Of a stretch of 64,000 bases of DNA, positions 1 to 63,240 are shown in pieces. This stretch comes from Octopus vulgaris (lineage: Eukaryota). How positions within the stretch are numbered: the stretch's first letter is position 1; each line of letters begins with the position of its first letter. A model generated the notes under the pieces. The model made no database searches. It saw only the letters and a program-made list of their open reading frames with translations, and had not been told where the DNA came from. The translations under genes and the position numbers were made by a program. Location: the NCBI GenBank assembly GCA_951406725.2, contig OX597829.1:32302001-32366000 (forward strand). Reading direction: 5' to 3'.

Positions 1-121
1 ACAGGGAATGGCTAGTTTTAGATTGGGCATAAGTTTCTAGTTGCATGCTTTGATAATTCAGTTGTGTGCTTGTATAATTCTGGTATGTGTGTGTGTGCGT
101 GCGCATGTGCAAGACTTGTCT

Positions 122-575
122 CCTGGCACATCTCATCAGTGATGTGATTTCGAGTCATCAGGGGTTTAGCCTTCTTAATATAGATGTTCTTGTCCAGACA
201 ACCCAGCCAGTGTCTGTCCTAGCTACAATTATTCATAGACCAACCCCTGAATCCAAAGCCACGAGGATTTTTTGCAGCTTCTCTTGTTAATTGTATTGTC
301 CTTCTTCGTTAACCCATGTAAATCCAAGTTGCTTGAGGACTGTGCAGAATGAGTATCTTGCAATGTCTCTACCACCACTTCTATAGGATCATGTATTTTG
401 AAGATTTGCTGACCATTTGCTGGTACTTCATACATTTTAGCAGCAGCACCATTCCTAGGGTGCTGCATTCAATTGTGGGCCTCTCTTGACTGTTGTAGAG
501 TTATCAGCAGCTCTTTAGTACTGTAAAATCTTCTGGTTCTGAAGTGAACCATTAGTATTTTTGAAGTAGTTCACA
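122..575 (-). mobile_element. Decayed 3' end of a Hero/NeSL-like non-LTR retrotransposon (restriction-like endonuclease region plus 3' UTR)
   Basis: Frameshifted minus-strand reading gives PIEV(G)...GLTKK...EAA.K.S.WLWI, the C-terminal signature of RLE elements. It is followed by a 3' UTR ending ...CACATCACTGATGAGATGTGCCAGG. Related copies lie at 2255-2480 and 16860-17190. Confidence 0.55.
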
Positions 576-577
576 TT

Positions 578-1239
578 AAAAAAAAAAAAAAAAAGTCTCT
601 AAAGATGAGGTTAATTAAGTTCAGGAAATTATATTTGTTCTTTAGTTTCTGTATTTCTTTTACTATGAAGTATTACATTAACTGTTCCTTATGAATACAA
701 CTTGATAAAATTAATGTTTTCAGCAAGTTATTTTGCATATTCTAAAACAAAAAAAACAAAACAAAACATTCAGGCTTTTATCATTCAGGCTGCATCTGAA
801 AATTTCAAATCAATGAATGAAGAATTTTTTCATTCAACTAAAAAATTTTCAAGGCGGTGCTGCATCATGGCCATGGTTGGTCTGAAACAAGTAAATGAAA
901 GATGTGATATCATCTATAGACATTTTGAGCTCTAGTATTACTATTAAGTTTTCTATGTTAAATCATGCATTCAGATTAAATTTTAATGAAGCAAGAAGGA
1001 TGTCTTCATTGCAACAATAAAAATGTATCAGTAATTATGATTTTCTAAAATCTTGATTAGTGCTTTAATTTCTTGTGAATTTGGCAACATTAGTTGTTTT
1101 GAGTAGTTCTATAATCTGATGTTCCAACTGTAACCATCTCACCTTTTCATTTATAAAGGGCAACATTCTTTGAACTGGTTTAAAATTGTAGGGGTTTAAA
1201 AAAAAAAAATTTAACTGTTATTTCTTATAGCTTGAGCAA
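578..1239. repeat. Local segmental duplication, copy A (about 650 bp, direct repeat of 4762-5380)
   Basis: Colinear and highly similar by eye, from attaagttcaggaaattatatttg through ...tttcttatagcttgagcaa in both copies. Confidence 0.9.
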
Positions 1240-1339
1240 ACCCTTTAGTTAGCATATTTCTGTAGGATTGTTTTGGTCATCTCTGATGAGCAGGTGATAG
1301 GCCCAAACCACCTGAGCTTGCGTTTCTTTATTGTGGTGA

Positions 1340-1910
1340 GAAGTTCCTTATAGGGCCCTATTGCCTGCCTTATCTTTCTTTTCACTTCCTAATTCATGAC
1401 ATGATCTCTGTATGATATTCCCAAAACATCTGAAACATTTCTTCTCTGCAGCCTGGATTCTTCTTTTGATTTCGGCTGTCAGTGTCCATGTCTCACAGAT
1501 GTACAGAATATTGAGATTACTAGTGATCTCATTAGTTAAATTTTGGAGCTCAGTGAGATACTTCTGACTTTCCACAGTGAAGATTTAATCCAAGTCTTTG
1601 GAACTGTTAAAGCCACTGACTCTAATATTAGTATTGATTCCGTTTGGGCTGTTTGTCATAACTTGTTTTCTCTCTGTTTATCTCCATGCCAAATTCATTG
1701 GAAGTCTTGTCTAGATGCTCTACTAGTTGTTTCAATTCTTGTTCTTAACCCATCAGTCTGACAATATCATGTATAAAGTGCAGGTTTGTTAGGTTTCTGC
1801 TGCCAATGCTAATTGTACCATGTGATCTTCTAAGTGCAACTATCATAATCCTCTCAAGGAAGATGTTGAACAAGTTCGGCAAGAGAAGGCAGCCTTGTCT
1901 TACACCAATC
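1340..1910 (-). mobile_element. Degenerate RTE-clade LINE, reverse transcriptase fragment
   Basis: Minus strand encodes IGVRQGCLLLPNLFNIFLERI (1850-1910) and ICETWTLTAEIKRRIQAAEKKCFR (ORF 1348-1575), with frameshifts and stops. Confidence 0.8.
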
Positions 1911-2254
1911 GACTAAAACAAATAAATAATGTAAAAGATAGTTGTAACTAATGTTTTTATGATAGTTCTACTCTTTGTAGAGCAACACCACAGAATGGAC
2001 ACCTATCACATACAAGCACTGGTATTGTCACTGAATATCTCAGTATTTCGTATTGAAAATGTTTTGATATTATATAATACATAGACATATACACATGCAT
2101 TTTAGTTCCAATGCTAATGGTATATAATACTTTGAAGATATTCATAATGATGTAACTTGTATAATATTTAGCAAATCAGCCTTGTGGGTTGTGTATATTG
2201 ATGATGATGATGATGATAGATTCTGCACAGTCTTAGTTTTATTTTATTTTCATA

Positions 2255-2480
2255 AGATAATGTGTTTTGAAGACTTGTTGATCAGTTGCTGGTATTTCTT
2301 GCATTTTAGTAGCAGCACCATCTCAGGGGTGCTGTATTCAATTGCAGGCCTCACTTGACTTTTGTAGAGTATCAGCAGTTATTTGTTTCTGAAATATTTT
2401 CTGGCTGGAGTGAAACATTAATGTTTTTGAAGCAGTCATCACTATGCTGAGGACATGCTTTTGACAGGCGAAAACTTAGC
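2255..2480 (-). mobile_element. Second Hero-like RLE fragment, homologous to 380-575
   Basis: gcattttagtagcagcaccatctcaggggtgctgtattcaattgcaggcctcacttgac aligns with 413-490. Confidence 0.5.
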
Positions 2481-2934
2481 TGATGGTGAGCCCCCCAACA
2501 TTTGGTGCATTAAATATGTTTATGTATTAAGTGTGTGTTCATACACACACACACACACACACACACAAAGTAATCAGAAATAATTAAATTACATTGATAA
2601 GTTTTAGAATTCAACTGCGTTACTCAAGTTTTTGTTTTTTATTTTTTAAATAGATCTTATTTGAAGATTAAAAATTTATTTTTAAATGTTAATATCTTGT
2701 CCTCTTGCCTACCATTTTTTGGTTTTGTTTTTACAAAATTAAATCCTGTTTTTCTTTCTCTTCCTTCCATTTATTGCTCTTCCTCTCTCTTGCTATCCCT
2801 CCCTCCCTGTCTACATGCTCTCCTCTTGTCTTTCTTGAGTTGAAAAGAAAATGTTAAAGATATTGTCAATTTAAAATTATAACCCTAAATTGGTTTTGAC
2901 ATTTAATAATTACCTTAGGATAATTAAAAAAAAA

Positions 2935-3390
2935 TTTATTCCTTCTAATTTAAATACAAGGCCAGCAATTTTAGGAGATTGTTGTTGGTTGGTTACATTG
3001 ACCACAGTGCTTAACATGTGTGTTATTTTATTGACCCTGAAGGGATGAAAGGCGAAGGATTTTGCCTTTCATCCTTTCAGGGCTGATAAAATGATACCTG
3101 TCAAGCCCTGGTGTCAGTGGTATGAATAATTCCCTTATCTTCAATTTCAGGCTTTGTGCCTATGCTTGAAACCAGAAAAAATGCTTTGTGAAGCATTACA
3201 ACATCAGAAACATATGCTTGTGGCATTTGTTCCAAGTAATGTTCTGAGTTCAAAACTTGTCAAGACCAATTCAACCTTTCAAACTTTTGGGGGATGATAC
3301 TATAAAAGTACATCAGGTTGATGGCATCAACTAAACCCTCCTTTCCCTTAAATTGTTGGCCTTGTACCTAAATGGAAAATTATTATTTAT
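2935..3390. mobile_element. Cluster of tRNA-headed SINE fragments (family with ctgagttcaaat...gactttgcctttcatcctttcgggg); the first two are back-to-back inverted
   Basis: gaccctgaagggatgaaaggcgaa is immediately followed by ttgcctttcatcctttcagggc. A third copy starts at about 3210. Confidence 0.65.
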
Positions 3391-4518
3391 CTATTTAAAA
3401 AGCTGCATGATTTGGTACTTCTAGAAATTGGGTTACTTTAGAGTTTTTGTTTTCAGTCCAACATAACTTTCTGTTGTAATTCTTTTAAGCTTCTTATTTT
3501 GTAATTTAGAAATTATTTTTTAATATACTGAAAAAGAAAAAAAAAATTAGAGACTAACCTTCTTAATTTGGTTTTAATTCCTAATTTAACTATCAATTTT
3601 TAGAATGTTGTAATGACTGGATTCTTTTACACTTTAATTATAGTTCTTTATCTTTAGTCCTTTCTTCAACTTTTATTTTGTTGGTTGGTTTTTTCTTTGG
3701 TGTTATCTTTATATATATATTACATAATTTTTTTTTTTACTTATTGACATTTTAAAATTTATATTTTACTTTATAATTTTCCTTGGGCGTGTGCATGCAT
3801 ACACACATGTACATATACACACTGGAACACATGCATACAGACACAATTTAAAGACTAACTGATGTATATGATTTTTATTTTCTTTCTTCAGAAAGTTGTC
3901 AGTATATTTGTGTTTGCACTTTTGTGTGTTGTGAATATTAACTTAATGTTTTCATTTGATAGTAAGAAAAAAAAATTTAAGACATTTAAAGAAAGATTTA
4001 CATGTTCAATATAACAAGATATTACTTCAGCATAATTACCAATAATCTACAGAAATGAATTGTATATGTTCAAGAGTTACATATTTATTAGTTCTTGTTA
4101 AAGAAGTCTTCGAAATAATATTGTAAAATATTGCAGAATGCAAGCATATTGAATTCTTTATTCAACTATCCACAATGCTGTGAAATTTCTTGTCTATGTT
4201 ACTACGGGTCTATCTTGCCTTTGTATCTACAGGGGGAAATTTCCTTTAAGAATAGTAAACAAATCAATGTTTTGATGAAAAATATTAGGTGGGTGGGCAA
4301 TATGTTACAATATTATGTTGGTTTTGTAGAAACTGTAACAATTTTCTGGCAATTGGTTGTACTGTCTTTTCAGTTATCAAAGCAATGAGTAAAAAAAAAA
4401 AAAAAAAAAAAAAAAATCACTGTCTTCTAAGTCATTATGATACCAGATCTACTGATATGAAACATGATGAGCTATCACTAAGAACTATATATATGTCTGT
4501 GTGGCTGTACTTTTTCTC

Positions 4519-4557
<39 letters not shown>

Positions 4558-4761
4558 TAGTTGATATTAGTTGATATGACCAGCCTCTAGGTGAAGCCTG
4601 AGAAAGTAATTTTTTGTTATAATATACATGTTACCCTCTACACCTAGTATTAATTTTTATCACATGTTTGCGTCCTATAATTAGCAAATTATATGATAAA
4701 AGTCATGGCCATTTACCCTTCCTCTGAGACTCAACAGGTTTTTTAAAAAATTGTAAATATA

Positions 4762-5380
4762 TAAAAAAAATATCTTTAAAAATGAGATTAAGTTCAGGAA
4801 ATTATATTTGTTATTTAGTTTCTGTATTTCTTTTACTATGAAGTATTACATTAGCTGTTCCTTATGAATACAACTTGATAAAATTAATGTTTTGAGCAAG
4901 TTATTTTTCATATTCTTTGAAAAAAACCCAAAAACATTCAGGCTTTTATCATTCAGACTGCAACTGAATATTTCAAATCTTTCATTCAACTAAAAAAATT
5001 TTTAAGGCAGTGCTACATCATGGCCATAGTTGGTCTGAAACAAGTAAATGAAAGATGTGATATTATCATCTATAGACATTTTGAGCTCTAGTATTACTAT
5101 TATTCAAATTAAATTGTAATGAAGCAAGAAGGATGTCTTCATTGCAACAATAAAAAAAGTATCAGTAATTACGATTTTCTAAAATCTTAATTAGTGCTTT
5201 AATTTCTTTTCTTGTGATTTTAGCAACAGTAGTTGTTTTGAGTAGTTCTATGATCAAAGCTGTTCCAACTGTAACCATCTCACCTTTTTATTTATAAAGG
5301 GCAACATTCTTTGTTCTGTTCTAAAATTGTAGGGTGTTTTTTTTTTAAAATTTAGCTGCTATTTCTTATAGCTTGAGCAA
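4762..5380. repeat. Local segmental duplication, copy B
   Basis: Direct repeat of 578-1239 with small indels. Confidence 0.9.
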
Positions 5381-5699
5381 TCAGTGAGTGGCTGTCTTGT
5401 CCTGTTGAAGTTGGATTCTGAAGCACATTCTGAAGCTTATGAAAAGAAATTTCTCAGCTCACTTGCACATCCTTTTCATTCTGTTTAATACATTTTTGGG
5501 GATATTTCTGTTGAGACAGACTGCCTTTGTTCCAATTAAATATGAAAATAAATTAGTAAAATAACTTTGTAATCATTAAGCTGTGTAAGTTAACATAAAA
5601 TTTGGGTGGAAAGTTTTTAGATCACTTTAAAACAAGTTTGTACCCCAGAAACAATTTCAGTTGGGTTGGTATCGAAAAAGTTAACTGGGTATGTTTTTG

Positions 5700-6616
5700 T
5701 CCTTTGATATAAATATAGTTAAATTTATATTATTTAACCATGCAATTGAAAAGATTAGGTGAATGGTCAGTGTTTTTTTTGTACATTTTCTTTGCAATTA
5801 AAAGATGTCTTTTGGAAAATGGTATTGTACTGCCTAGCATATTTTCTGAAATTTCCCCCACATCTGTCTGATCTTCAAATAATTTCCTCATTTCTGGTGG
5901 TAAGTCAGGTAGTGGTGCTAAATTGAGTTTTCTGTTCATACAGTAAAAGTTGGCAGTTTCTCCCAGAAATTTGAAAGCTCTACAATGGGGGAACGATAGA
6001 CAACAATATCTTGATGGTTGCAGTGTCGAAAGTGTTGGTTTCAAAGTCATTGAAGTTGTCTGTTCTTCATTTTCATTTAAATGAACTTGCTGTTGTCTCA
6101 TTTGAGCTTGCTTTAGTCTTTCAGCCCTTTGATTATAATTTTCGTTTAAACATCAGATTTGTTGACTTTTCAATCTACATTGTCTCTGTTCTTCAGTTTC
6201 AAGTCTTAATTGCTCTCTCTTTTTATTCAGACATCTTTCTCTGATTAGTTGATACCCCTCCCTTTCTCCGATTCTTTTGGCTTTGGGTATTGGATGGCTC
6301 AAATCAGGCCTTTTTGGTGGCATCTGGAAAAATTATTCTTATGAATTTTATAAAAAATATCTCATAAAAATATAGGGAGAATATCTATCTTTCAGTCCAT
6401 GGCACTCCGAAAGTTGTATAAATGATTTGGGGAAGGAAAAAAGGCTGGACGGCAGTAGCTGTGACAACTCTCTGAAGTGCCGCCGCCACTATTTGACATT
6501 TTCAACTTGATTTTTTTTTTTTTCATAAAGGAGGAAATGACTGTTTTCTTTGTAATCTTTGTCATATTAATCAAAGGGCAGGAAAACACAAACTTTGAGT
6601 TTTAGTAATATATATG
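5700..6616 (-). mobile_element. Helitron 5' fragment with decayed N-terminal part of Rep-Helicase
   Basis: ORF 5730-6101 contains PHCRAFKFLGETANFYCMNRKLNLAPLPDLPPEMRKLF, matching the C..C.A.KF..E...CC..GK..LP.L...P motif of RepHel. The minus-strand start TATATTACTAAAACTC resembles Helitron 5' ends. Confidence 0.7.
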
Positions 6617-7049
6617 TGTGTTATATTTATTGCACTAGGTGCAACTAAAAGTTACTGTTTTATTTGCATCTCTTAATAGTAATCATATTAAACTTCTGCA
6701 TTATTCCATGGGTTCTATGCAGTCTGAAAAGAGCTATACATAATTGTCTTATATCTCCCAGGCATTCTATAAAAATTGCATGTCCATGATATATATCTTG
6801 TCTTTGCCTAAAGATGTGTTTGGTATGATTAAACGTATCTGATGAATTTTTTTGCTATATTGTGGTTCACTTGGTTATTGCCTGATATTTATTGTCCAAT
6901 CTGCATCACTTAAAAAAATACCAGACATATTTAAATTCTATAGAGAGAATATGTGGATTTTCAATAAAATTAAAGTTTTAGTCATCATACTGTGGTTGTC
7001 ATTCAAACTCTTTTAATTGTAATACCAAACTTTTTTTCTGAGCAAAACA

Positions 7050-7096
<47 letters not shown>

Positions 7097-7534
7097 CACA
7101 CACACACACACACACATGTGCTTATGTTCAGACATACTCTACAGAAAATTCTTTCTTACCCTGTGGCATGTTAAAATCAACTTTTCTATAAGCCATTGTG
7201 CGCTTGTGTCTATACACATAAAGGAAGACTATATATTCGTATTAAACTATTGTGTGGAAGGTTTAAAAATACAAGGATCTAGAATGTATTTATTGCAATA
7301 ATTACATCATTTTCTTTTCTCTTCTACTGTTGTTTAATGAAATATCTGAAAATGTTTTTGAATGCTTTTTTTTTTTGTTAAAATTGCTTTACATTTTATG
7401 CTTAACTGTTTGTCTTGAAAATAAAATGTAAAATCAAACAATATCTATTTCAATTTGATTAACCATTGCTTTATTAATATAATTACACATGTATCATTCT
7501 TTATTTTCTTTTTCTTTTTACCTGCTATCTTCAG

Positions 7535-7552
7535 TGAGCGACAACTTTTTCG
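7535..7552 (+). CDS. MAPK8IP3: 18-nt microexon of the JIP3/JIP4 gene, (x)SDNFF(G), phase 1 to phase 1
   Basis: Long pyrimidine tract, then cctgctatcttcAG|TGAGCGACAACTTTTTCG|GTAAGA. It joins in frame to the 16617 exon to give SDNFFGMGKE, matching DDFFGMGKEV of vertebrate JIP3. Confidence 0.85.
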
Positions 7553-8651
7553 GTAAGATTACTGTCCTAAGCCCATCTCTCTTTAAGTTGTTGCTTTGCA
7601 GCATTCAAGCACTGTTGAAGAGGCTTTAAATATTGTCCTTTCTTTTTTTATTTGTTAAATAGATCCCATGATTTGGTTTATAATATAGCATTATATAATA
7701 TCCATAAGGAAAGAAAAAAATTATGCAACAAGGCTTGACAAGGATTGTCTTTTGTGTTCTGCCATGTCTTGCTACATTTCCTTGGATGTCTGTGTTTTTT
7801 GTGCGCGTGTGCACATTTGCTTGCTTTTGTATTTGTACTGTTTTGTTTAATGTCCTTGTAAATATCTGTACCATTTGTATGTGAAGTCCTGATGAATCAG
7901 TATTCTTTATTTGTACTGCTTATTCTGTTGGTCATTGTCATTTTATGTTTAACATTCTCAGTGTATTAAAACTATTATGTTGTATATGAATCAACATATT
8001 TTGTAACTTCAATGTTCTTACATTAAAAAGTGTCCCACAATATTTGTCAAGTGTTCAAATTGATTTCTCGTAACATAGCATGTTGTTGGCATTTTTATGT
8101 TTTATCGTCTGCAAATGTCTGAATTGTTCACTGTTGTAAACTGCTTTCCGTCAGTCTTTGTTGTGTATGTGTGGTCTTGTTGATGTGATTCTTCCAGTAA
8201 GTCCCAGTAATCTACTGGGTCTCGTCAATCAACTAGAATTCTTCTCTGCAAACTCATGACCCTATTTCTGTAGAATAAATCATTACTGCAATCTAACTTT
8301 GAGTATTAGGATTTAGCCCTGCAAGCTCAATGCATTTTTCACTGCAAAAAGCATTGATTTTTGTACTTTCTCCTGATACATATTTAACTCAGACATTGTA
8401 TTTTTTAGTAGCATTTCTAATAGACACCCATCCAACACATCAAGTAGAAACAACTAAATAGCTGAGTTGCTACAATGAGTGGTTGAAATCTTTTGAGCTA
8501 AATCAATTTACACATTTAAGATTGTATAATTTTCGATCCTGGACTTCACTATGTAGTGTATTTTGAAAATTTACACTAAATCATAGCATCAAAATGTGGT
8601 TTTCAAAAAAAGTGTCATATTGAAAATAGAAAATATCTAGAAGCAAATATA

Positions 8652-9929: not shown

Positions 9930-10850
9930 TAACTGCAGCCTCTGCAGTGGATGTTCCTAGTGCAAGAGAAAGATAATGCCATTATTATCACTGAGGCAAT
10001 CTCTAAGAGGGTGACCTGGTGCACTGCATACCCGGTGCTTTTCCTCTTGGAACTGCTTGCAAAAGGAAGAGCATCAGGTATGTATCAACAAAGTGTAATC
10101 TCCCAGTCATCCTACATAAGTCCACAATCTTGGTCTCCAGGTACTCTGTTATGGCTTTTGAGGGGTTTGGGGAACCAAGAATGCAGACAGCGTTCCTTGA
10201 TATCAGCCAAGCCTCTGCCGAGATGGGATGAATGCTGAGTATGGTGTCTTGGAATTCAGTTTCACCATAGCTCATGTTTATCACCTCTGACTTGGATGGG
10301 TTGATTTCAAGCCCAAGAAGCTTTAGGACTGAGATGATTTGCTGAAGGTCGCCAACTACAGACTCAGCTGAGTCACCTAAGGTCACGTCATCCAAGTTAT
10401 GAGACATTGAAGGGTGAGAGGACTAATTGGGTAACATCATTGACAACCAATGCAAAAAGATGTGGACCAAGAGGGTCACCCTGCTGGACACCTGTTAAAG
10501 AAACAGCCCTGTTAGCAGCAGCCATGAGTGTGTTGGAGTTCCATAGGTGATGTATGCTGTATGTAATGTCTGGCCACATGGTCAGCAGCCTCACATTCAC
10601 ACTTGACTCCCGCCCCCAGCTAGACAGGGGTTAGTGCCTCCTTCAGGTCATCCCAGTCTGATCTACATGCTATCCCAGCCACAAACCATCGAAAGATGTT
10701 GTCCCCTATTATTGGATGGATGCCTCTGCTCTCTTCCCTGAGCATTTTCTGATTGGCTGAGAAGAGATCTTGGGCATGGCAGGAGAAGGTCTGCATGAAG
10801 ACTATCTGTAAGTGCAGTGATAAATCAGAGCAAGTGTGCGCCCACCTTTA
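9930..10850 (-). mobile_element. Degenerate CRE-like (RLE-class) non-LTR retrotransposon, RT fragment
   Basis: GVQQGDPLGPHLFAL (ORF 10397-10600), then after a frameshift LDDVTLG...LGLEINPSKSEV (ORF 10003-10407). GC-rich relative to the flanks. Confidence 0.75.
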
Positions 10851-11139: not shown

Positions 11140-11594
11140 AGGATTAATAAGATCTGGTCATCAAATCTAAGTAGAGACTTCAAACTTGAAATCTTCAAAG
11201 CCACAGTCGAACCAATTCTACTATATGGCTCAGAAACCTGGATGTTATCAAAGAAGCCTCCTTATGAGAGCTCAAAATCTCTTGTGGAAGCGTCATCCAT
11301 CCAAAATGCAAATATATGGGAAACAACCACCTGTGTCATCTCTTGGGAAAGGTAGGAGAGTCCAGTTTGCTGGACATTGTTGTAGAGCTGAAAACGAGGC
11401 AATTTCTACTCTTCTCCTCTGGAAGCCATCTACTCGCAATACCAGAGGGCGCACACTCTCTTACCCTGATGTAATCTCCAGGGATACAGGCATCCAGCAA
11501 CAGGACCTCCATAATGCCATGATGGACCGTGAAGTCGGGCGTAACATGGTAAATTCCATTGTCTCAACCACGGTCGAACAATGATGATGATGAT
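11140..11594 (+). mobile_element. 5'-truncated RTE-X-like LINE 3' end with (TGA)n tail
   Basis: KLEIFKATVEPILLYGSETW, then RRVQFAGHCCRAENE...LLLWKPS...AMMDRE, ending in tgatgatgatga. Confidence 0.8.
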
Positions 11595-16616: not shown

Positions 16617-16674
16617 GTATGGGTAAAGAACTTGAAAACTTGATTCTAGAGAACACTGAATTATTGGCTACTAA
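16617..16674 (+). CDS. MAPK8IP3: JIP3/JIP4 exon, (G)MGKELENLILENTELLAT(K), start of leucine zipper II
   Basis: ttgcAG|GTATGGGT...GCTACTAA|GTAAGT, 58 nt, phase 1 to 2. Close to JIP4 GMGREVENLILENTQLLETK. Confidence 0.97.
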
Positions 16675-18503: not shown

Positions 18504-18560
18504 AAATGCTTTGAATGTTGTAAAAGATGACCTTATTGCCAAAGTTGATGAACTTACCAG
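18504..18560 (+). CDS. MAPK8IP3: JIP3/JIP4 exon, (K)NALNVVKDDLIAKVDELT(S), leucine zipper II
   Basis: ctttttcAG|AAATGCT...ACCAG|GTGAGT, 57 nt, phase 2 to 2. Confidence 0.97.
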
Positions 18561-19826: not shown

Positions 19827-19974
19827 TGAACATGAAATTATGCGCGAGGAAATCAATTCTCTACAAACAGTAAAATCACGTCAAATACAGCGCATCTCAG
19901 AATTAGAAGATAACTTAAAGAAAGTGAAAGAAGAATTAGAGAAAAAATCTCAGGTTGCTCAAGCTGATGAAGAA
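19827..19974 (+). CDS. MAPK8IP3: JIP3/JIP4 exon, (S)EHEIMREEINSLQTVKSRQIQRISELEDNLKKVKEELEKKSQVAQADEE, coiled coil
   Basis: ttccAG|TGAACAT...GAAGAA|GTGAGT, 148 nt, phase 2 to 0. Confidence 0.96.
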
Positions 19975-20210: not shown

Positions 20211-20401
20211 GATGATATTCCAATGGCTCAGAGGAAACGGTTCACACGTGTTGAGATGGCACGGGTATTGATGGAACGCAATCAATACAAAGAACGTCTT
20301 ATGGAACTACAAGAAGCAGTCAGATGGACAGAAATGATCCGTGCTTCAAGAGAACATCCAGATTTAGCTCCAACCAAGAAGAAGTCCTCTATTTGGAATT
20401 T
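20211..20401 (+). CDS. MAPK8IP3: JIP3/JIP4 exon encoding the RH2 domain, [50 protein letters not shown]...KKKSSIWN(F)
   Basis: ttacAG|GATGAT...AATTT|GTAAGT, 191 nt, phase 0 to 2. [39 protein letters not shown] is diagnostic for JIP3/JIP4/Syd. Confidence 0.99.
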
Positions 20402-50232: not shown

Positions 50233-52611
50233 TAACACTGACTGCTACCATATGTTTGAGTTCAAATCCTACTATTACAGCTGCTTTGTTGGAATGTAAA
50301 ACCAGTTTCATTCAGTTTTCATAGTTCAGATACTCTTCTTAACTGGTTGCAACTGAGTTGTGTCTCATTGTGCTGCATCAGGAATCTCTGTCCATTATTA
50401 ATTTGAGTACATTTTCAGTTTCATGTATGTGCTGTCAATAATGTTAATGTAGTTGAGTGGATTTCTTCCTCTATTTGAGTGTAGAATTCTCAAAATATGA
50501 CTACTTGTATGGCCTATTGTTCAGTAGGGTATCAATGACCAGCAAAATCAATCTTGTATGAAACAGTAATAGTAGAGATGGTTGGAATGTGATAATGAAT
50601 TTCCTCTCTGGTCTTATACTCACAACATGAGATGAGATGTTTTGAGCCCTCTTGAAAAGTTTGATATAAATACCATCAAGGTGATTTTGAAGCTGTTCCT
50701 ACAGATGTGTCTTGTCTACCAATAGAAAGAAAAACCAAACAGTTATTATCTGTAACCAGAGTACTTAATGTACAATGTCTCTACCCACTTACCTATATAG
50801 GTACCATCAATGCAGGTGTAAAGCTCACTTCTATTAACAAAAGCTGAGACACTACAATTAAGTCCTTGAAGTAAGTTTAAACTCATTTTAGCAAAAAAAC
50901 TTCCTCTCTCCAAAGACTTCCTATTTGCATCATGTATGTCTTATGCTTTTACAGTTTATTATGGGAATTTCTCCAGAATTTGCCTCTCTTCGATTTTCAG
51001 GGAAAATAGCATGTGGTACCTCTAGCAGTGAATCACAATTTCATCATTGTCATCATTTAATGTCCATCTTCCATGCATGCATGAGAAGGATTGTTGACAG
51101 GAGTTGGCCATGTAGAAACTCTACCCAAGGCTACTATGTTTTGGCAGGGATTTTTTACAGTTGGATGCCCTTCCTAACACCAGCCACTCTGCCTGTGCTA
51201 ATGCCACGTAAAAAGCATTGAGTCCACCCTGCAAAGTTAGTTTTGGTAAGATTTTTACAGCTAGGTACCCTTCCAGATGCTAACCATGTTACAGTGTGAA
51301 CTGGATGCTTTTAATATGGTACCAGTATTGGTAGGGTAACCAAGAAACACACAAAACATGGAACTATGAAAAGAGCAGGGCATTTGTGTCAGAGGATGAA
51401 AGTTAGTGTGACAAAGAGACAGAAGCAGGTGTTTTGCCACAACAGAGGGGACATAAGAGGAGGTGATCCAGTATCAGATAATGAAAGGTTTGGGTGTAAC
51501 AGAGAAATAGAGAGGCAGAAATAGGTGTCTTGTTATAGAGGAGCTACATGGTTATCCAGTGAGAGAGAGAGAGAGCGGGGTACAAGAAAGAGGCCAGAAG
51601 CAAGTGTGCTGATGTAAAAGTGATACTTGGTTACATAGTCAGAGGAAAAACGAGGTGAGTAGGAGACAGCAAAAGTGTAAGAGAGAATAAAAGAGAGATG
51701 GTGTAGTGCTGGGGTATACTCACAAGTAACAAGAACATGAGCATAGAACCTGGGTAGAGAAATAGGGAGTGAATGTGATCTGTTGTGCAAGTCATTTAGG
51801 GATACCAGCTCATTGTATTGCATGGTCGATTATGTGAGCAACTCGTGTGTTCTACATTGCCAGGTACAAGATGTAGTTGAAAAACATATATTTTATAGTT
51901 GACAAATGTTTCAGCAGCAAAAGCACAGTATTCAATGGTCCAGATCATGATGGTAACTGAAAGTTAAAAAAATATAAAAATATTTCCTATATGAAGACAT
52001 TGTTACCATCTGTCTAACTTCACTAGCTAACAGGCATCAAAACAACAGGAACGGGAGGATTCTTTATCACATACTGTTTTTTCAGTATCTATTTCTTAGG
52101 ATCATCATAGTGCTTTTCATTGCCTTTATATTTCTAATGACTCCTTCAGTCATATATCCATCAATATCAATGGCTGGTCTCTCTTTTTGGTGTACTTAGA
52201 ATAATCTCCCTCTCTCATATATGTATTCTTTTCATTCTTATAGTATGTTTCTATGCTTCTTTGCAATGTGAGTGAGGGAAAATGCTTTGCATTCATTTTA
52301 TCCATACTTTTGTGGTTGATGTTTGATTTACACTGTGCTCATAGTCCATTGGATGACATACAGTATATATGTGACTGGGCTGAATATTCATAATCATGAA
52401 ATGGAATGGCAAAGATACATAGCTAAGCAAACACATGACCAGGTACATGTGCATATGTTTAAATGTGTGTGTATAACATACATACACAAAGAAAATTCAT
52501 AGTGACTTTGAAAGTTTTACCTTGTGCTTGCTTCATCAGACTGCACACTGGCATGCAACAAACCTTCAAAGTCACTGTTAACTTTGCTTTTTTTTAAATA
52601 CATTTTATATG

Positions 52612-53607: not shown

Positions 53608-54923
53608 ATCATCATCATCATCATCGTTTAACGTCCGCTTTCCATGCTAGCATGGGTTGGACGGTTCAACTGGGGTCTGGCAAGCCCGAAGGCTGCACCA
53701 GGCCAGTCAGATCTGGCAGTGTTTCTACAGCTGGATGCCCTTCCTAATGCCAACCACTCTGAGTGGTGATTTTATGTGCCACTGACACAGGTGCCAGACG
53801 AGGCTGGCAGATGGCCACGCTCGGATAAGCATTATATTGGATAGAGTGATCGGAATGCACTCTGCACTTGACTTGATGGGTCCTCTTAAGCAGAGCACAT
53901 CACCTAAAGTCTTCGTCACTAGTCATTGCCTCTGTGAGGTTCAAAGTTCGAAGATCATGTTTCACCACCTTGTCCCATGTCTTCATGGGTCTACCTCTAC
54001 TACAAGTTCCCTCCACAGTTAGAGATCGGCATTTCTTTACACAGTTGTCCTTGGCCATACACATCACATGACCATAGCAGCGCAGTTGTCTCTCTTGCAC
54101 ACCATCTGATTCCTCTTATACTTAACTTTTCTGTCAAGATGCTTACAGTCTTTCAAACATGCACACTGACATTGCTCATCCACAAAGCATACTAGCTTTA
54201 TTTATTTCAAGCCTACGCATGTCCTTGGCTGTCACTGCCCATGTTTCACTGCCATACAGCATAGCTGTTCGCACTCAGGCATCAAACAATCTGCCTTTCA
54301 TTCTGAGAGAGGGGCCTTTTGTTGCCAGCAGGTGTAGGAACTCTCTGGACTTTACCCAACCAAATCTAATTCTTACAGCTACACTCTTGGAACATCTACC
54401 TCCACTACTAACCTGGTTGACTAGATAAAAGAAGCTATCTACTACTTCTAGGTTGCCCCCTGGTAGTTGATGAAGTGTATTTTCCACTCATGTTCAGCAT
54501 TTATTATACCTGTGCACCTTCCATATACAAAAGTTAGTTTCTCTGTTAACTTTCCTTTGATGTTGCTGCACCTTTTATGTGTCCAAAGCTTACACTGGGT
54601 GCATCTTATGGAATTTCTACCTACACCTTTTCTACAAATTGTGCAAGGCCAGCTACCCGAGGGGATTTGTGATTTGTCTACCTTCCTATTTACTATGACT
54701 TTAGTTTTTGCTAGGTTAACTCTAGGGCCTTTTGATTCTAGACCTTGTTTCCATACCTGGAACTTCTCTAGTTCAGGTAGTGATTCAGCTATTTGGGCAT
54801 GGTCATTGACATAGAGGAACACCCAGGGGCAGCCTGTTTCGAATTTCTCTGTTATTGTCTGGAGGACTATGATGAACAAGAGGGGACTGAGCACCAAACC
54901 TTGGTGAACCCCTACTTGTACTC
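53608..54923 (-). mobile_element. 5'-truncated RTE-clade LINE (RT core, Cys/His-rich insert, 3' UTR, (TGA)n tail)
   Basis: VQVGVHQGLVLSPLLFIIVL...GCPWVFLYVND...GLESKGPRVNLAKTKV...PCTICRKGVGRNSIRCTQCKLWTHKRCS...LEVVDSFFYL...RQLRCYGHVMCM...RGRPMKTW, spread over ORFs 54448-54897, 54275-54487 and 53900-54100. Confidence 0.92.
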
Positions 54924-63060: not shown

Positions 63061-63240
63061 TTTCAGCAATCTGTTTAACACCTCCAATAAGCCTAGCAAG
63101 AAACCACTGCCAGTCGCTACCGTACGATACAATGCTCCAACCACCCATGTCCAACCAGTCGGAGACCCCAACAAAAAGCAACGTAGCAAGTATAACTTGG
63201 GAGAAAAGGCAAAAGCCTATGAATTTTTACAAGACGAAGG
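63061..63240 (+). CDS. MAPK8IP3: JIP3/JIP4 exon, (F)FSNLFNTSNKPSKKPLPVATVRYNAPTTHVQPVGDPNKKQRSKYNLGEKAKAYEFLQDE(G), linker between RH2 and WD40
   Basis: ctttccacAG|TTTCAGC...GAAGG|GTAAGT, 180 nt, phase 2 to 2. Similar to JIP4 FSRLFSSSSNTTKKPEPPVNLKYNAPTSHV...KSKAFDFL. Confidence 0.95.

What the first reader, a model, noticed from the sequence alone, without database searches (positions are those of the whole stretch)
7500..7560. 18-nt microexon (xSDNFF) with the upstream UGC motif typical of SRRM4/eMIC-regulated neural microexons
Seen: a long U/C tract, TGC about 10 nt before the AG, an 18-nt frame-preserving exon and a GTAAGA donor. The exon is isolated 9 kb upstream of the next exon, and at least 7.5 kb from any confidently called upstream exon. 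Established: vertebrate JIP3 has VRDDFF immediately before GMGKEV, JIP4 lacks it, and UGC near the 3' splice site marks SRRM3/4 targets. Inference: this is a deeply conserved neural microexon that tunes the N-terminal edge of LZII, the region that binds kinesin light chain and ARF6. Gene predictors easily miss it.
Basis: partly seen in the sequence, partly recalled or inferred. Interest (0 to 1): 0.7.

Follow-up and report, generated by a model that had tools for sequence, protein, structure and literature searches.

The report
Ancient JIP3 microexon in octopus
An 18-base optional exon in the octopus gene for the nerve-cell cargo adaptor JIP3 is spliced in by some RNA samples and skipped by others, and it closely resembles exons at the same spot in flies, bees, worms, a sea star and vertebrates, so it is likely a single ancient, probably nerve-enriched switch rather than the repeated invention a recent preprint proposes.

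Summary
The exon is real. Window 7535-7552 is an 18-nt, phase 1-1 cassette (VSDNFF) of the Octopus JIP3/4 (syd/UNC-16) gene. Of 8 RNA-type runs laid, 3 join it to 16617, 4 skip it and 1 shows no inclusion joint. Tissues are unlabelled. NCBI already annotates it as a cassette in O. bimaculoides, and 18-nt exons next to LZII have been deleted in zebrafish and fly, so the exon itself is not new. The added point is homology. A same-position xxD[NT][FY][FY] peptide occurs in molluscs, a priapulid, a nematode, arthropods and a sea star, and vertebrate JIP3 has VRDDFF (same length and phase, 13/18 nt identical to mouse). A 2026 preprint treats the fly exon as convergent and accepts only two bilaterian-ancestral neural exons, so this is a candidate third. 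The splice architecture fits eMIC targets, but neural inclusion and eMIC dependence are untested: the fly exon is only eMIC-sensitive and the mouse exon is absent from that table. The peptide lies between the dynactin-binding Spindly motif and LZII, outside the kinesin light chain contact site. No earlier scan finding names this gene.

The parts
7283..7532 (+). 250-nt AG exclusion zone before the microexon acceptor
   Evidence: longest AG-free gap on the + strand of the window
7495..7519 (+). U-rich polypyrimidine tract (TTTTC-type, not UCUC repeats)
7523..7525 (+). TGC (UGC) at -12..-10; none of the five downstream acceptors has one at -20..-6
7535..7552 (+). 18-nt phase 1-1 cassette microexon encoding (V)SDNFF(G)
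7553..7558 (+). 5' splice site GTAAGA
   Evidence: joint GT..AG
7553..8200 (+). UG-rich downstream intron, a possible CELF/ELAV-type element (inferred)
   Evidence: 16 TTGT in the first 500 nt, reached by 0 of 127 fixed 500-nt bins (mean 5.2); one TTGTTGTG at 8158, motif class not enriched in the window
16617..16674 (+). exon starting LZII (GMGKELENLILENTELLATK)
18504..18560 (+). LZII exon (NALNVVKDDLIAKVDELT), holds most of the KLC-contact region
19827..19974 (+). exon completing LZII
20211..20401 (+). RH2 exon, ending inside the FFxxL autoinhibitory helix
63061..63240 (+). next coding exon after a 42.7-kb intron

Best explanation
This is an optional 18-base exon of octopus JIP3/4 that is included in some samples and skipped in others, is likely inherited from the last common bilaterian ancestor, is probably switched on mainly in neurons by eMIC-containing Srrm234 with likely help from CELF/ELAV-type proteins, and adds six residues that are predicted to tune how the LZII coiled coil docks on and releases from dynactin. 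Shown: the exon, both splice forms, its position and the shared peptide. Inferred: common ancestry (about 0.8), neural enrichment in octopus (about 0.7), a substantial eMIC contribution (about 0.55), and the protein mechanism (about 0.4). In detail, the exon is the last of three small optional exons between the Spindly-like motif (IYNEF in octopus; LYHEL in human, which binds dynactin p25) and LZII. Octopus isoforms set that linker at 35, 41, 46 or 52 residues. Because the acidic residue and the two aromatic residues are kept across phyla, the peptide likely makes a contact (dynactin pointed end or the N-terminal cap of the LZII dimer) rather than acting only as a spacer, and would shift the balance between dynein-dynactin engagement and Arf6/kinesin-1 binding on neuronal cargo.
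For: Cassette: inclusion in X4, X10 and X19 (inclusion contig depth 35.3, non-inclusion contig depth 4); skipping read directly in X2, X6, X7 and by an identical 1,503-nt contig layout in X8; X4 and X6 are one study and show opposite forms. RefSeq O. bimaculoides X1 and X4 differ only by VSDNFF. Homology: bivalves VSDNFF, snail VGDNFF, priapulid VSDTFF, nematode VNDTFI, bees/ants V[NS]DNFF, beetle VNDNFY, Daphnia VTDNFY, mites VTDNFF/VSDNIF, Drosophila ANDNYF, sand fly VNDNFF, sea star VMSPDNFY, human VRDDFF. The peptide is also absent from sister isoforms in Drosophila (X1 vs X3 differ only by ANDNYF; 37 of 120 dipteran hits skip it), bumblebees (4 of 15 listed) and sea star (1 of 7). Zebrafish and mouse exons are 18 nt, phase 1-1, with 10/18 and 13/18 identity to the octopus exon. 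The upstream small exon is shared too (GEYASS-type in molluscs and insects, PSEFS in sea star, GEFS in human). Neural hints from counterparts: zebrafish inclusion rises from 0 at the 12-h point to 0.92 at 48 h; the fly exon is called neural-specific and eMIC-sensitive. Splice architecture matches the eMIC description (long AG exclusion zone, UGC, long tract). Position; an AlphaFold2 monomer of the oyster orthologue leaves the peptide as coil just before the LZII helix, which starts at residue 538.
Against: No tissue labels, so neural inclusion in octopus is unshown; contigs drop minor forms and give no true PSI. The taxon survey is biased, since searches ranked by likeness to an inclusion-form query (top 120 of 1,335; top 150 of 332). 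The peptide was not seen in lamprey (9 of 9 models), Ciona (2 of 2), Styela, a rotifer, Seison or Fasciola; amphioxus and hemichordates were not sampled; the sea-star version is 8 residues. Exon borders outside octopus, zebrafish and mouse are inferred from isoform differences, not genomic DNA. The preprint's ExOrthist analysis, which included O. bimaculoides, did not group these exons. eMIC: fly only 'sensitive', mouse exon not listed, UGC common by chance (17 of 84), no UCUC repeats or CUAAY branch point. Protein: by my count the mouse fragment that bound Arf6 and the pointed end together was six residues shorter in this linker, so the exon is probably not needed for either binding; the zebrafish deletion is mild. 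The cryo-EM model assigned human 406-495, which covers the peptide, to LZII, against the coil prediction (pLDDT about 62 there).
Confidence: 0.6

Rival explanations
1. Recurrent origin: octopus, fly, other arthropod, echinoderm and vertebrate exons arose separately in the same intron and converged on a similar peptide, as the 2026 preprint infers for syd/SPAG9/MAPK8IP3.
For: The preprint reports the fly exon as conserved only in hoverfly, with convergent events elsewhere. Gaps in lamprey, tunicates and flatworm models; 8-residue sea-star form. Six residues carry little information.
Against: Same position, length and (where visible) phase; a graded series ANDNYF, ANDNFF, VNDNFF, VSDNFF across flies, sand fly, bees and molluscs; scores of 17-32 against the octopus peptide, reached by none of 86-238 linker 6-mers per protein in 9 lineages (lineages chosen because they carry the peptide); the neighbouring small exon is shared as well. 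The preprint says its criteria cost false negatives.
Confidence: 0.15
2. The exon is ancient and alternative, but its inclusion is set mainly by CELF/ELAV-type or other factors, or follows development or gonad state, with eMIC minor.
For: UG-rich downstream intron; fly exon only eMIC-sensitive and also included in ovary; mouse exon not among eMIC targets; a different unc-16 exon is run by UNC-75 and EXC-7 in C. elegans.
Against: Acceptor architecture (250-nt AG exclusion zone, UGC at -12) is typical of eMIC targets; the exact UNC-75 motif occurs once, 606 nt downstream, in a class at chance frequency (30 found, 26 expected).
Confidence: 0.35
3. The six residues directly extend the kinesin light chain or ARF6 binding surface of LZII.
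For: The exon abuts LZII: the Pfam JIP_LZII match starts at its last Phe; the cryo-EM LZII assignment includes it; the preprint raises the same idea.
Against: KLC2 contacts are mouse residues 433-450 and the construct (417-487) starts after the exon; the ARF6 complex used the equivalent JIP4 construct.
Confidence: 0.15
4. The exon acts only as a length spacer in a disordered linker, with little effect of sequence.
For: Predicted coil with modest confidence; many linker lengths exist (20-71 residues); mild zebrafish phenotype.
Against: Asp invariant and Val, Asn and first Phe at 90% or more in 23 chosen inclusion forms; fly deletion of the 18-nt syd exon causes age-dependent hyperactivity and fewer offspring.
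Confidence: 0.15
5. A chance look-alike in a large intron, not an exon.
For: Short motifs occur by chance; 4 of 100 shuffles gave a similar site.
Against: Spliced contigs contain it in 3 of 8 runs; NCBI isoforms of three octopus species and a cuttlefish contain it.
Confidence: 0.01

Closest known systems
Vertebrate MAPK8IP3 (JIP3) 18-nt microexon vRDDFFg (zebrafish chr3:15,944,966-983; mouse chr17:24,908,411-428; PMC12626420 supplementary file 1)
   Same: Same position before GMGKE, 18 nt, phase 1-1, 13/18 nt identical to mouse, D-x-F-F core.
   Different: S-D-N for R-D-D; octopus has UGC at -12 while the zebrafish UGC is 'Maybe (40 bp away)'; octopus has two further small optional exons upstream (36 and 33 nt by peptide length).
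Drosophila syd 18-nt microexon (DmeEX0009788; PMC8797185 table S2; bioRxiv 10.64898/2026.09.05.749416)
   Same: 18 nt, adjacent to LZII, follows the same GEYASS segment, cassette; the six-residue cassette at that place in Drosophila isoforms is ANDNYF, which I take to be this exon (inferred, not checked on fly DNA).
   Different: 3 of 6 residues identical; short flanking introns in fly (about 0.5 kb) against more than 7.5 kb and 9 kb here; described by its authors as convergent with other lineages.
SRRM3/4 (Srrm234 eMIC)-dependent neural microexons
   Same: Length, frame, long AG exclusion zone, long pyrimidine tract, UGC near the acceptor.
   Different: No UCUC repeats or CUAAY branch point found; neural inclusion and eMIC dependence not tested in octopus.
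Bilaterian-ancestral neural microexons in APBB1/2/3 (6 nt) and MADD (9 nt) (same preprint)
   Same: Small in-frame exon at a shared position across protostomes and deuterostomes.
   Different: Those passed the preprint's orthology and tissue criteria; this one was not counted.
C. elegans unc-16 exon 16 (84 nt, UNC-75/EXC-7 regulated; PMC8378409, PMC3627589)
   Same: Neuron-regulated cassette in the orthologous gene.
   Different: 84 nt and exon 16, so most likely a different exon; not mapped here.

Membership tests
JIP3/JIP4 (syd, UNC-16) gene | RH1, LZII, RH2 and WD40 architecture | tested here: met
   Window exons match NCBI octopus JIP4-like proteins at 100%; Pfam RH1, JIP_LZII, WD40_2 on P0303; PDB hits JIP3/JIP4.
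SRRM3/4-eMIC neural microexon | 3-27 nt, frame-preserving | tested here: met
   18 nt, phase 1-1.
SRRM3/4-eMIC neural microexon | Alternative cassette (both forms made) | tested here: met
SRRM3/4-eMIC neural microexon | UGC between branch point and AG | tested here: met
   TGC at -12..-10; weak alone, 17 of 84 comparable sites have one.
SRRM3/4-eMIC neural microexon | Long AG exclusion zone and long pyrimidine tract | tested here: met
   250 nt, longest in the window; pyrimidine fraction 0.86. Constitutive neighbours have 48-131 nt.
SRRM3/4-eMIC neural microexon | UCUC repeats and strong CUAAY branch point | tested here: inconclusive
   One TCTC in the upstream 250 nt; only TTAAC (-76) and TTAAT (-61) type candidates; no branch-point model for octopus was run.
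SRRM3/4-eMIC neural microexon | Strong 5' splice site (mammalian targets) | tested here: inconclusive
   G|GTAAGA scores 3.6 on my rough matrix; three downstream donors scored 4.2-9.2 in the same call.
SRRM3/4-eMIC neural microexon | Inclusion enriched in neural tissue | not testable with these tools
   Run labels are coded; only sample-to-sample switching is seen.
SRRM3/4-eMIC neural microexon | Inclusion depends on the eMIC domain | not testable with these tools
   Needs perturbation; fly counterpart eMIC-sensitive only, mouse counterpart not listed.
Orthologue of the vertebrate JIP3 and fly syd 18-nt exons | Same position and length | tested here: met
Orthologue of the vertebrate JIP3 and fly syd 18-nt exons | Same intron phases | tested here: inconclusive
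   Phase 1-1 in octopus, zebrafish and mouse; not seen on DNA for other taxa.
Orthologue of the vertebrate JIP3 and fly syd 18-nt exons | Sequence similarity above background | tested here: met
   13/18 nt with mouse; peptide scores above all linker 6-mers in 9 of 9 chosen lineages.
Orthologue of the vertebrate JIP3 and fly syd 18-nt exons | Presence in lineages that bridge protostomes and vertebrates | tested here: inconclusive
   Sea star has an 8-residue form; not seen in lamprey or tunicate models; amphioxus and hemichordates not sampled.

The most novel reading that the evidence does not exclude
This is a third bilaterian-ancestral neural microexon. The octopus, fly, bee, priapulid, nematode, sea-star and vertebrate JIP3 exons are one exon kept since the bilaterian ancestor, so a showcase example of convergent neural exons is conservation, and the peptide is a neuron-specific contact in the Spindly-to-LZII linker that sets how JIP3 hands cargo between dynein-dynactin and Arf6/kinesin-1.
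Probability: 0.5. Interest if true: 0.62.

Novelty: new member of a known kind. Interest (0 to 1): 0.42.

Why it matters
The exon is annotated and its fly and zebrafish counterparts have been deleted, so its existence is ordinary. It matters for an open question: how many neural microexons are truly shared across bilaterians. One paper states that fly and vertebrate microexons do not overlap, and a 2026 preprint accepts two ancestral cases and uses syd as an example of convergence. The octopus exon, identical in peptide to some bee and bivalve forms and matching the mouse exon in length, phase and 13 of 18 bases, bridges the two and suggests that automated exon orthology undercounts deep conservation. 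It also gives a cheap test on a disease gene (MAPK8IP3): the JIP3 constructs used in the kinesin, Arf6 and dynactin studies appear to differ in whether they carry these six residues.

Tried and rejected
No run was on record as RNA and no tissue was given, so neural inclusion could not be read; spliced joints show the laid runs hold RNA. I laid 8 of 22 listed runs. The two upstream small exons were sought in 1-7534 and not found; they lie outside the window and their splice sites were not seen. An idea that the exon's FF mimics the DLIC helix and serves autoinhibition was dropped: the known FFxxL autoinhibitory helix is human 570-582, encoded at 20401/63061. The exact UNC-75 motif is not enriched. 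The C. elegans 84-nt unc-16 exon was considered as a counterpart and set aside (exon 16). A second candidate microexon at 52244-52267 lacks TGC and has no protein support. The AlphaFold2 model is a monomer of the oyster orthologue with low confidence over the linker, so no fold search or complex job was run. Literature searches; none returned a paper on a cephalopod JIP3 microexon or one calling this exon bilaterian-ancestral. The 2019 eMIC paper by Torres-Mendez et al. was not read, and the preprint's Fig. 5j and supplementary datasets were not seen; either could already list the octopus exon.

Full report
Observation. A U-rich tract (pyrimidine fraction 0.86 over -40..-4), TGC at 7523-7525, AG at 7533-7534, an 18-nt exon at 7535-7552 and GTAAGA at 7553 are present. 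The next coding exon starts at 16617 and the frame continues as xSDNFF-GMGKELENL through exons 18504-18560, 19827-19974, 20211-20401 and 63061-63240. The 250-nt AG-free stretch before the acceptor is the longest among 3,310 AG dinucleotides on the + strand. A scan for pyrimidine-rich acceptor, TGC, 3-27 nt and GTRAG finds this site alone on both strands; 4 of 100 Markov shuffles gave a hit, with thresholds set after seeing the site. TGC by itself is weak evidence: 17 of 84 pyrimidine-rich YAG sites have one at -20..-6.

The gene. Exon 19827-19974 is 100% identical to NCBI JIP4-like proteins of Octopus vulgaris and O. bimaculoides; the species was not resolved. The protein has RH1, JIP_LZII and WD40 domains and matches human JIP3 and JIP4 structures. 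The exon is already annotated: all 5 O. vulgaris models retrieved carry VSDNFF, 9 of 12 listed O. bimaculoides RefSeq isoforms that reach this region carry it, and X1 and X4 differ by it alone. These isoforms show three small optional segments between GADIT and GMGKE (GSAVNPGEYASS, ESDKENDREST, VSDNFF); the first two are not in the window.

RNA. I laid 8 of 22 listed runs, all Logan contigs, none on record as RNA and none with a tissue label. X4 and X10 hold the joint 7552>16617 (GT..AG) in the same contig as the downstream exons (depth 312 and 124); X1 and X8 hold the downstream joints but not this one. X2, X6 and X7 each have one contig in which the GEYASS exon is joined straight to 16617; X19 has an inclusion contig (depth 35.3) and a short non-inclusion contig (depth 4). 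The X8 contig is 1,503 nt with the same layout as the X6 skip contig, 18 nt shorter than the 1,521-nt X4 and X10 contigs. The tally is 3 inclusion, 4 skip, 1 without an inclusion joint. X4 and X6 come from one study and one organism label. The pattern looks switch-like, but contigs drop rare forms, so no PSI can be given and the tissue is unknown.

Relatives. Of 123 proteins carry a V[SN]DNF[FY] peptide before GMGKE, 4 lack it and 1 has no anchor; these are top hits to an inclusion-form query (120 of 1,335) and mostly Hymenoptera, so the proportion means nothing, only the presence. Among 150 representatives, 15 by eye end in such a peptide before the LZII start (9 of 81 by a stricter pattern); most others are fragments that begin at the LZII exon, skip forms or divergent taxa. 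Named ones are Priapulus VSDTFF, the nematode Mesorhabditis VNDTFI, Drosophila sechellia ANDNYF, a beetle VNDNFY, Daphnia VTDNFY, two mites VTDNFF and VSDNIF, a snail VGDNFF and the sea star Patiria VMSPDNFY. Among 120 dipteran hits, 81 carry it (ANDNYF, ANDNFF, VNDNFF), 37 skip it and 2 have another peptide; D. sechellia X1 and X3 differ only by ANDNYF. It is also optional in bumblebees (absent in 4 of 15 listed) and sea star (absent in 1 of 7). Human JIP3 has GEFS-VRDDFF-GMGKE. The zebrafish and mouse exons are 18 nt, phase 1-1, with 10/18 and 13/18 identity to the octopus exon. In 9 chosen lineages the peptide scores 17-32 (BLOSUM62) against octopus, above every 6-mer of the same proteins' disordered linkers (maximum 5-13). 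Against continuity: it was not seen in lamprey (9 of 9 models), Ciona (2 of 2), Styela, a rotifer, Seison, Fasciola or the JIP4-type vertebrate representatives. Gene models often omit such exons, so these are not proof of loss. Amphioxus and hemichordates were not sampled.

Regulation. The acceptor fits the eMIC target description (long AG exclusion zone, UGC, long tract; PMC8797185 passages), without UCUC repeats or a CUAAY branch point. UGC is in 74-79% of SRRM3/4 targets and is not strictly required (10.1101/2024.09.17.613571, section 10). The fly 18-nt syd exon DmeEX0009788 is classed eMIC-sensitive, the weaker class; the mouse exon's coordinates are absent from the same tables; the zebrafish UGC is 'Maybe (40 bp away)' and its inclusion rises from 0 to 0.92 between the 12-h and 48-h points. 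The 500 nt after the octopus exon have 16 TTGT, more than any of 127 fixed bins, which hints at CELF/ELAV-type input, but the UNC-75 motif class is at chance level in the window. Neural enrichment in octopus is therefore an inference from the counterparts and the architecture, and eMIC may be one input among several. An earlier scan note says the Srrm234 eMIC switch is annotated in an abalone; I did not check it.

Protein mechanism. In human JIP3, LYHEL (382-386) is a Spindly motif that binds dynactin p25; LZII docks on the pointed end and is proposed to detach when Arf6 binds, about 7.5 nm away (PMC7615804 passages). Counting along the chain, VRDDFF is 409-414 (the count puts L444 where the paper does). 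The matching octopus motif IYNEF lies 35, 41, 46 or 52 residues before LZII depending on the small exons. KLC2 contacts are mouse 433-450 and the crystallised construct, 417-487, begins just after the exon (PMC6224480 passages), so a direct KLC or ARF6 contact is unlikely. The mouse fragment that bound Arf6 and the pointed end together has L383 and L439, six residues closer than human L382 and L444, so it probably lacked the exon (my inference). An AlphaFold2 monomer of the oyster orthologue leaves the peptide as coil (pLDDT about 62) with the helix starting two residues later, while the cryo-EM work assigned 406-495 to LZII. I conclude that the exon likely modulates, and does not create, the docking of LZII on dynactin, and that the kept Asp and aromatic pair point to a contact. 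This step is inference only.

Prior work and novelty. PMC12626420 (passages and supplementary rows; file 13 not searched) deleted the zebrafish exon with mild effects and states that fly and vertebrate microexons do not overlap. bioRxiv 10.64898/2026.09.05.749416 (abstract, sections 9, 11, 12, 24, 26 and passages; figures and supplements not seen) deleted an 18-nt fly syd exon next to LZII, found age-dependent hyperactivity and fewer offspring, calls it conserved in hoverfly with convergent events elsewhere, includes O. bimaculoides in its 20 species, and accepts only APBB and MADD exons as bilaterian-ancestral under criteria it calls conservative. PMC8378409, PMC3627589 and PMC12772503 were seen as passages only. 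Searches returned no paper on a cephalopod JIP3 microexon or calling this exon ancestral; the library lacks most subscription papers.

Verdict. A real, annotated cassette microexon, a new member of a known kind. It works like a neural microexon; membership of the eMIC-dependent class is untested on its two defining features. The worthwhile claim is that it is the same exon as in flies and vertebrates (about 0.8) and, if neural in octopus, a third bilaterian-ancestral neural microexon (about 0.5 overall). Interest 0.42.

Noticed in passing
window 20401 / 63061: The FFxxL autoinhibitory helix (SIWNF|FSNLF) is split by a 42.7-kb intron. In the mite Tetranychus, isoform X1 has six extra residues at this spot, so an optional exon here could alter autoinhibition. 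No such insert in the listed O. bimaculoides isoforms.
   Followed up: partly
upstream of the window: Two more small optional segments (GSAVNPGEYASS, ESDKENDREST) precede the microexon; the first is shared with insects, priapulid, nematode and sea star, the second is an acidic insert of variable length.
   Followed up: partly
window 7352-8032: Run X1 holds two unspliced contigs (depth about 5) across the microexon and its downstream UG-rich intron; pre-mRNA, intron retention or DNA cannot be told apart.
   Followed up: no
window 52244-52267: A 24-nt AG..GT candidate with a pyrimidine tract and no TGC in the large intron; no protein support.
   Followed up: partly
window 577-1239 and 4754-5380: A roughly 650-nt intronic segment occurs twice at 84% identity.
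   Followed up: no
window 54448-54921 (-), 10003-10422 (-), 11171-11584 (+): Retrotransposon-like fragments: the first has a weak RVT_1 match below the Pfam cut-off; the other two look RT-like by eye and have no Pfam hit.
   Followed up: partly
proteins P0222, P0235, P0246, P0133: In some unnamed fragment predictions the peptide is directly fused to the LZII exon, in others it sits a short read-through intron upstream, suggesting intron loss or shrinkage in some lineages.
   Followed up: no
window 5730-6152 (-): A 140-codon stop-free frame on the opposite strand with no Pfam match.
   Followed up: partly
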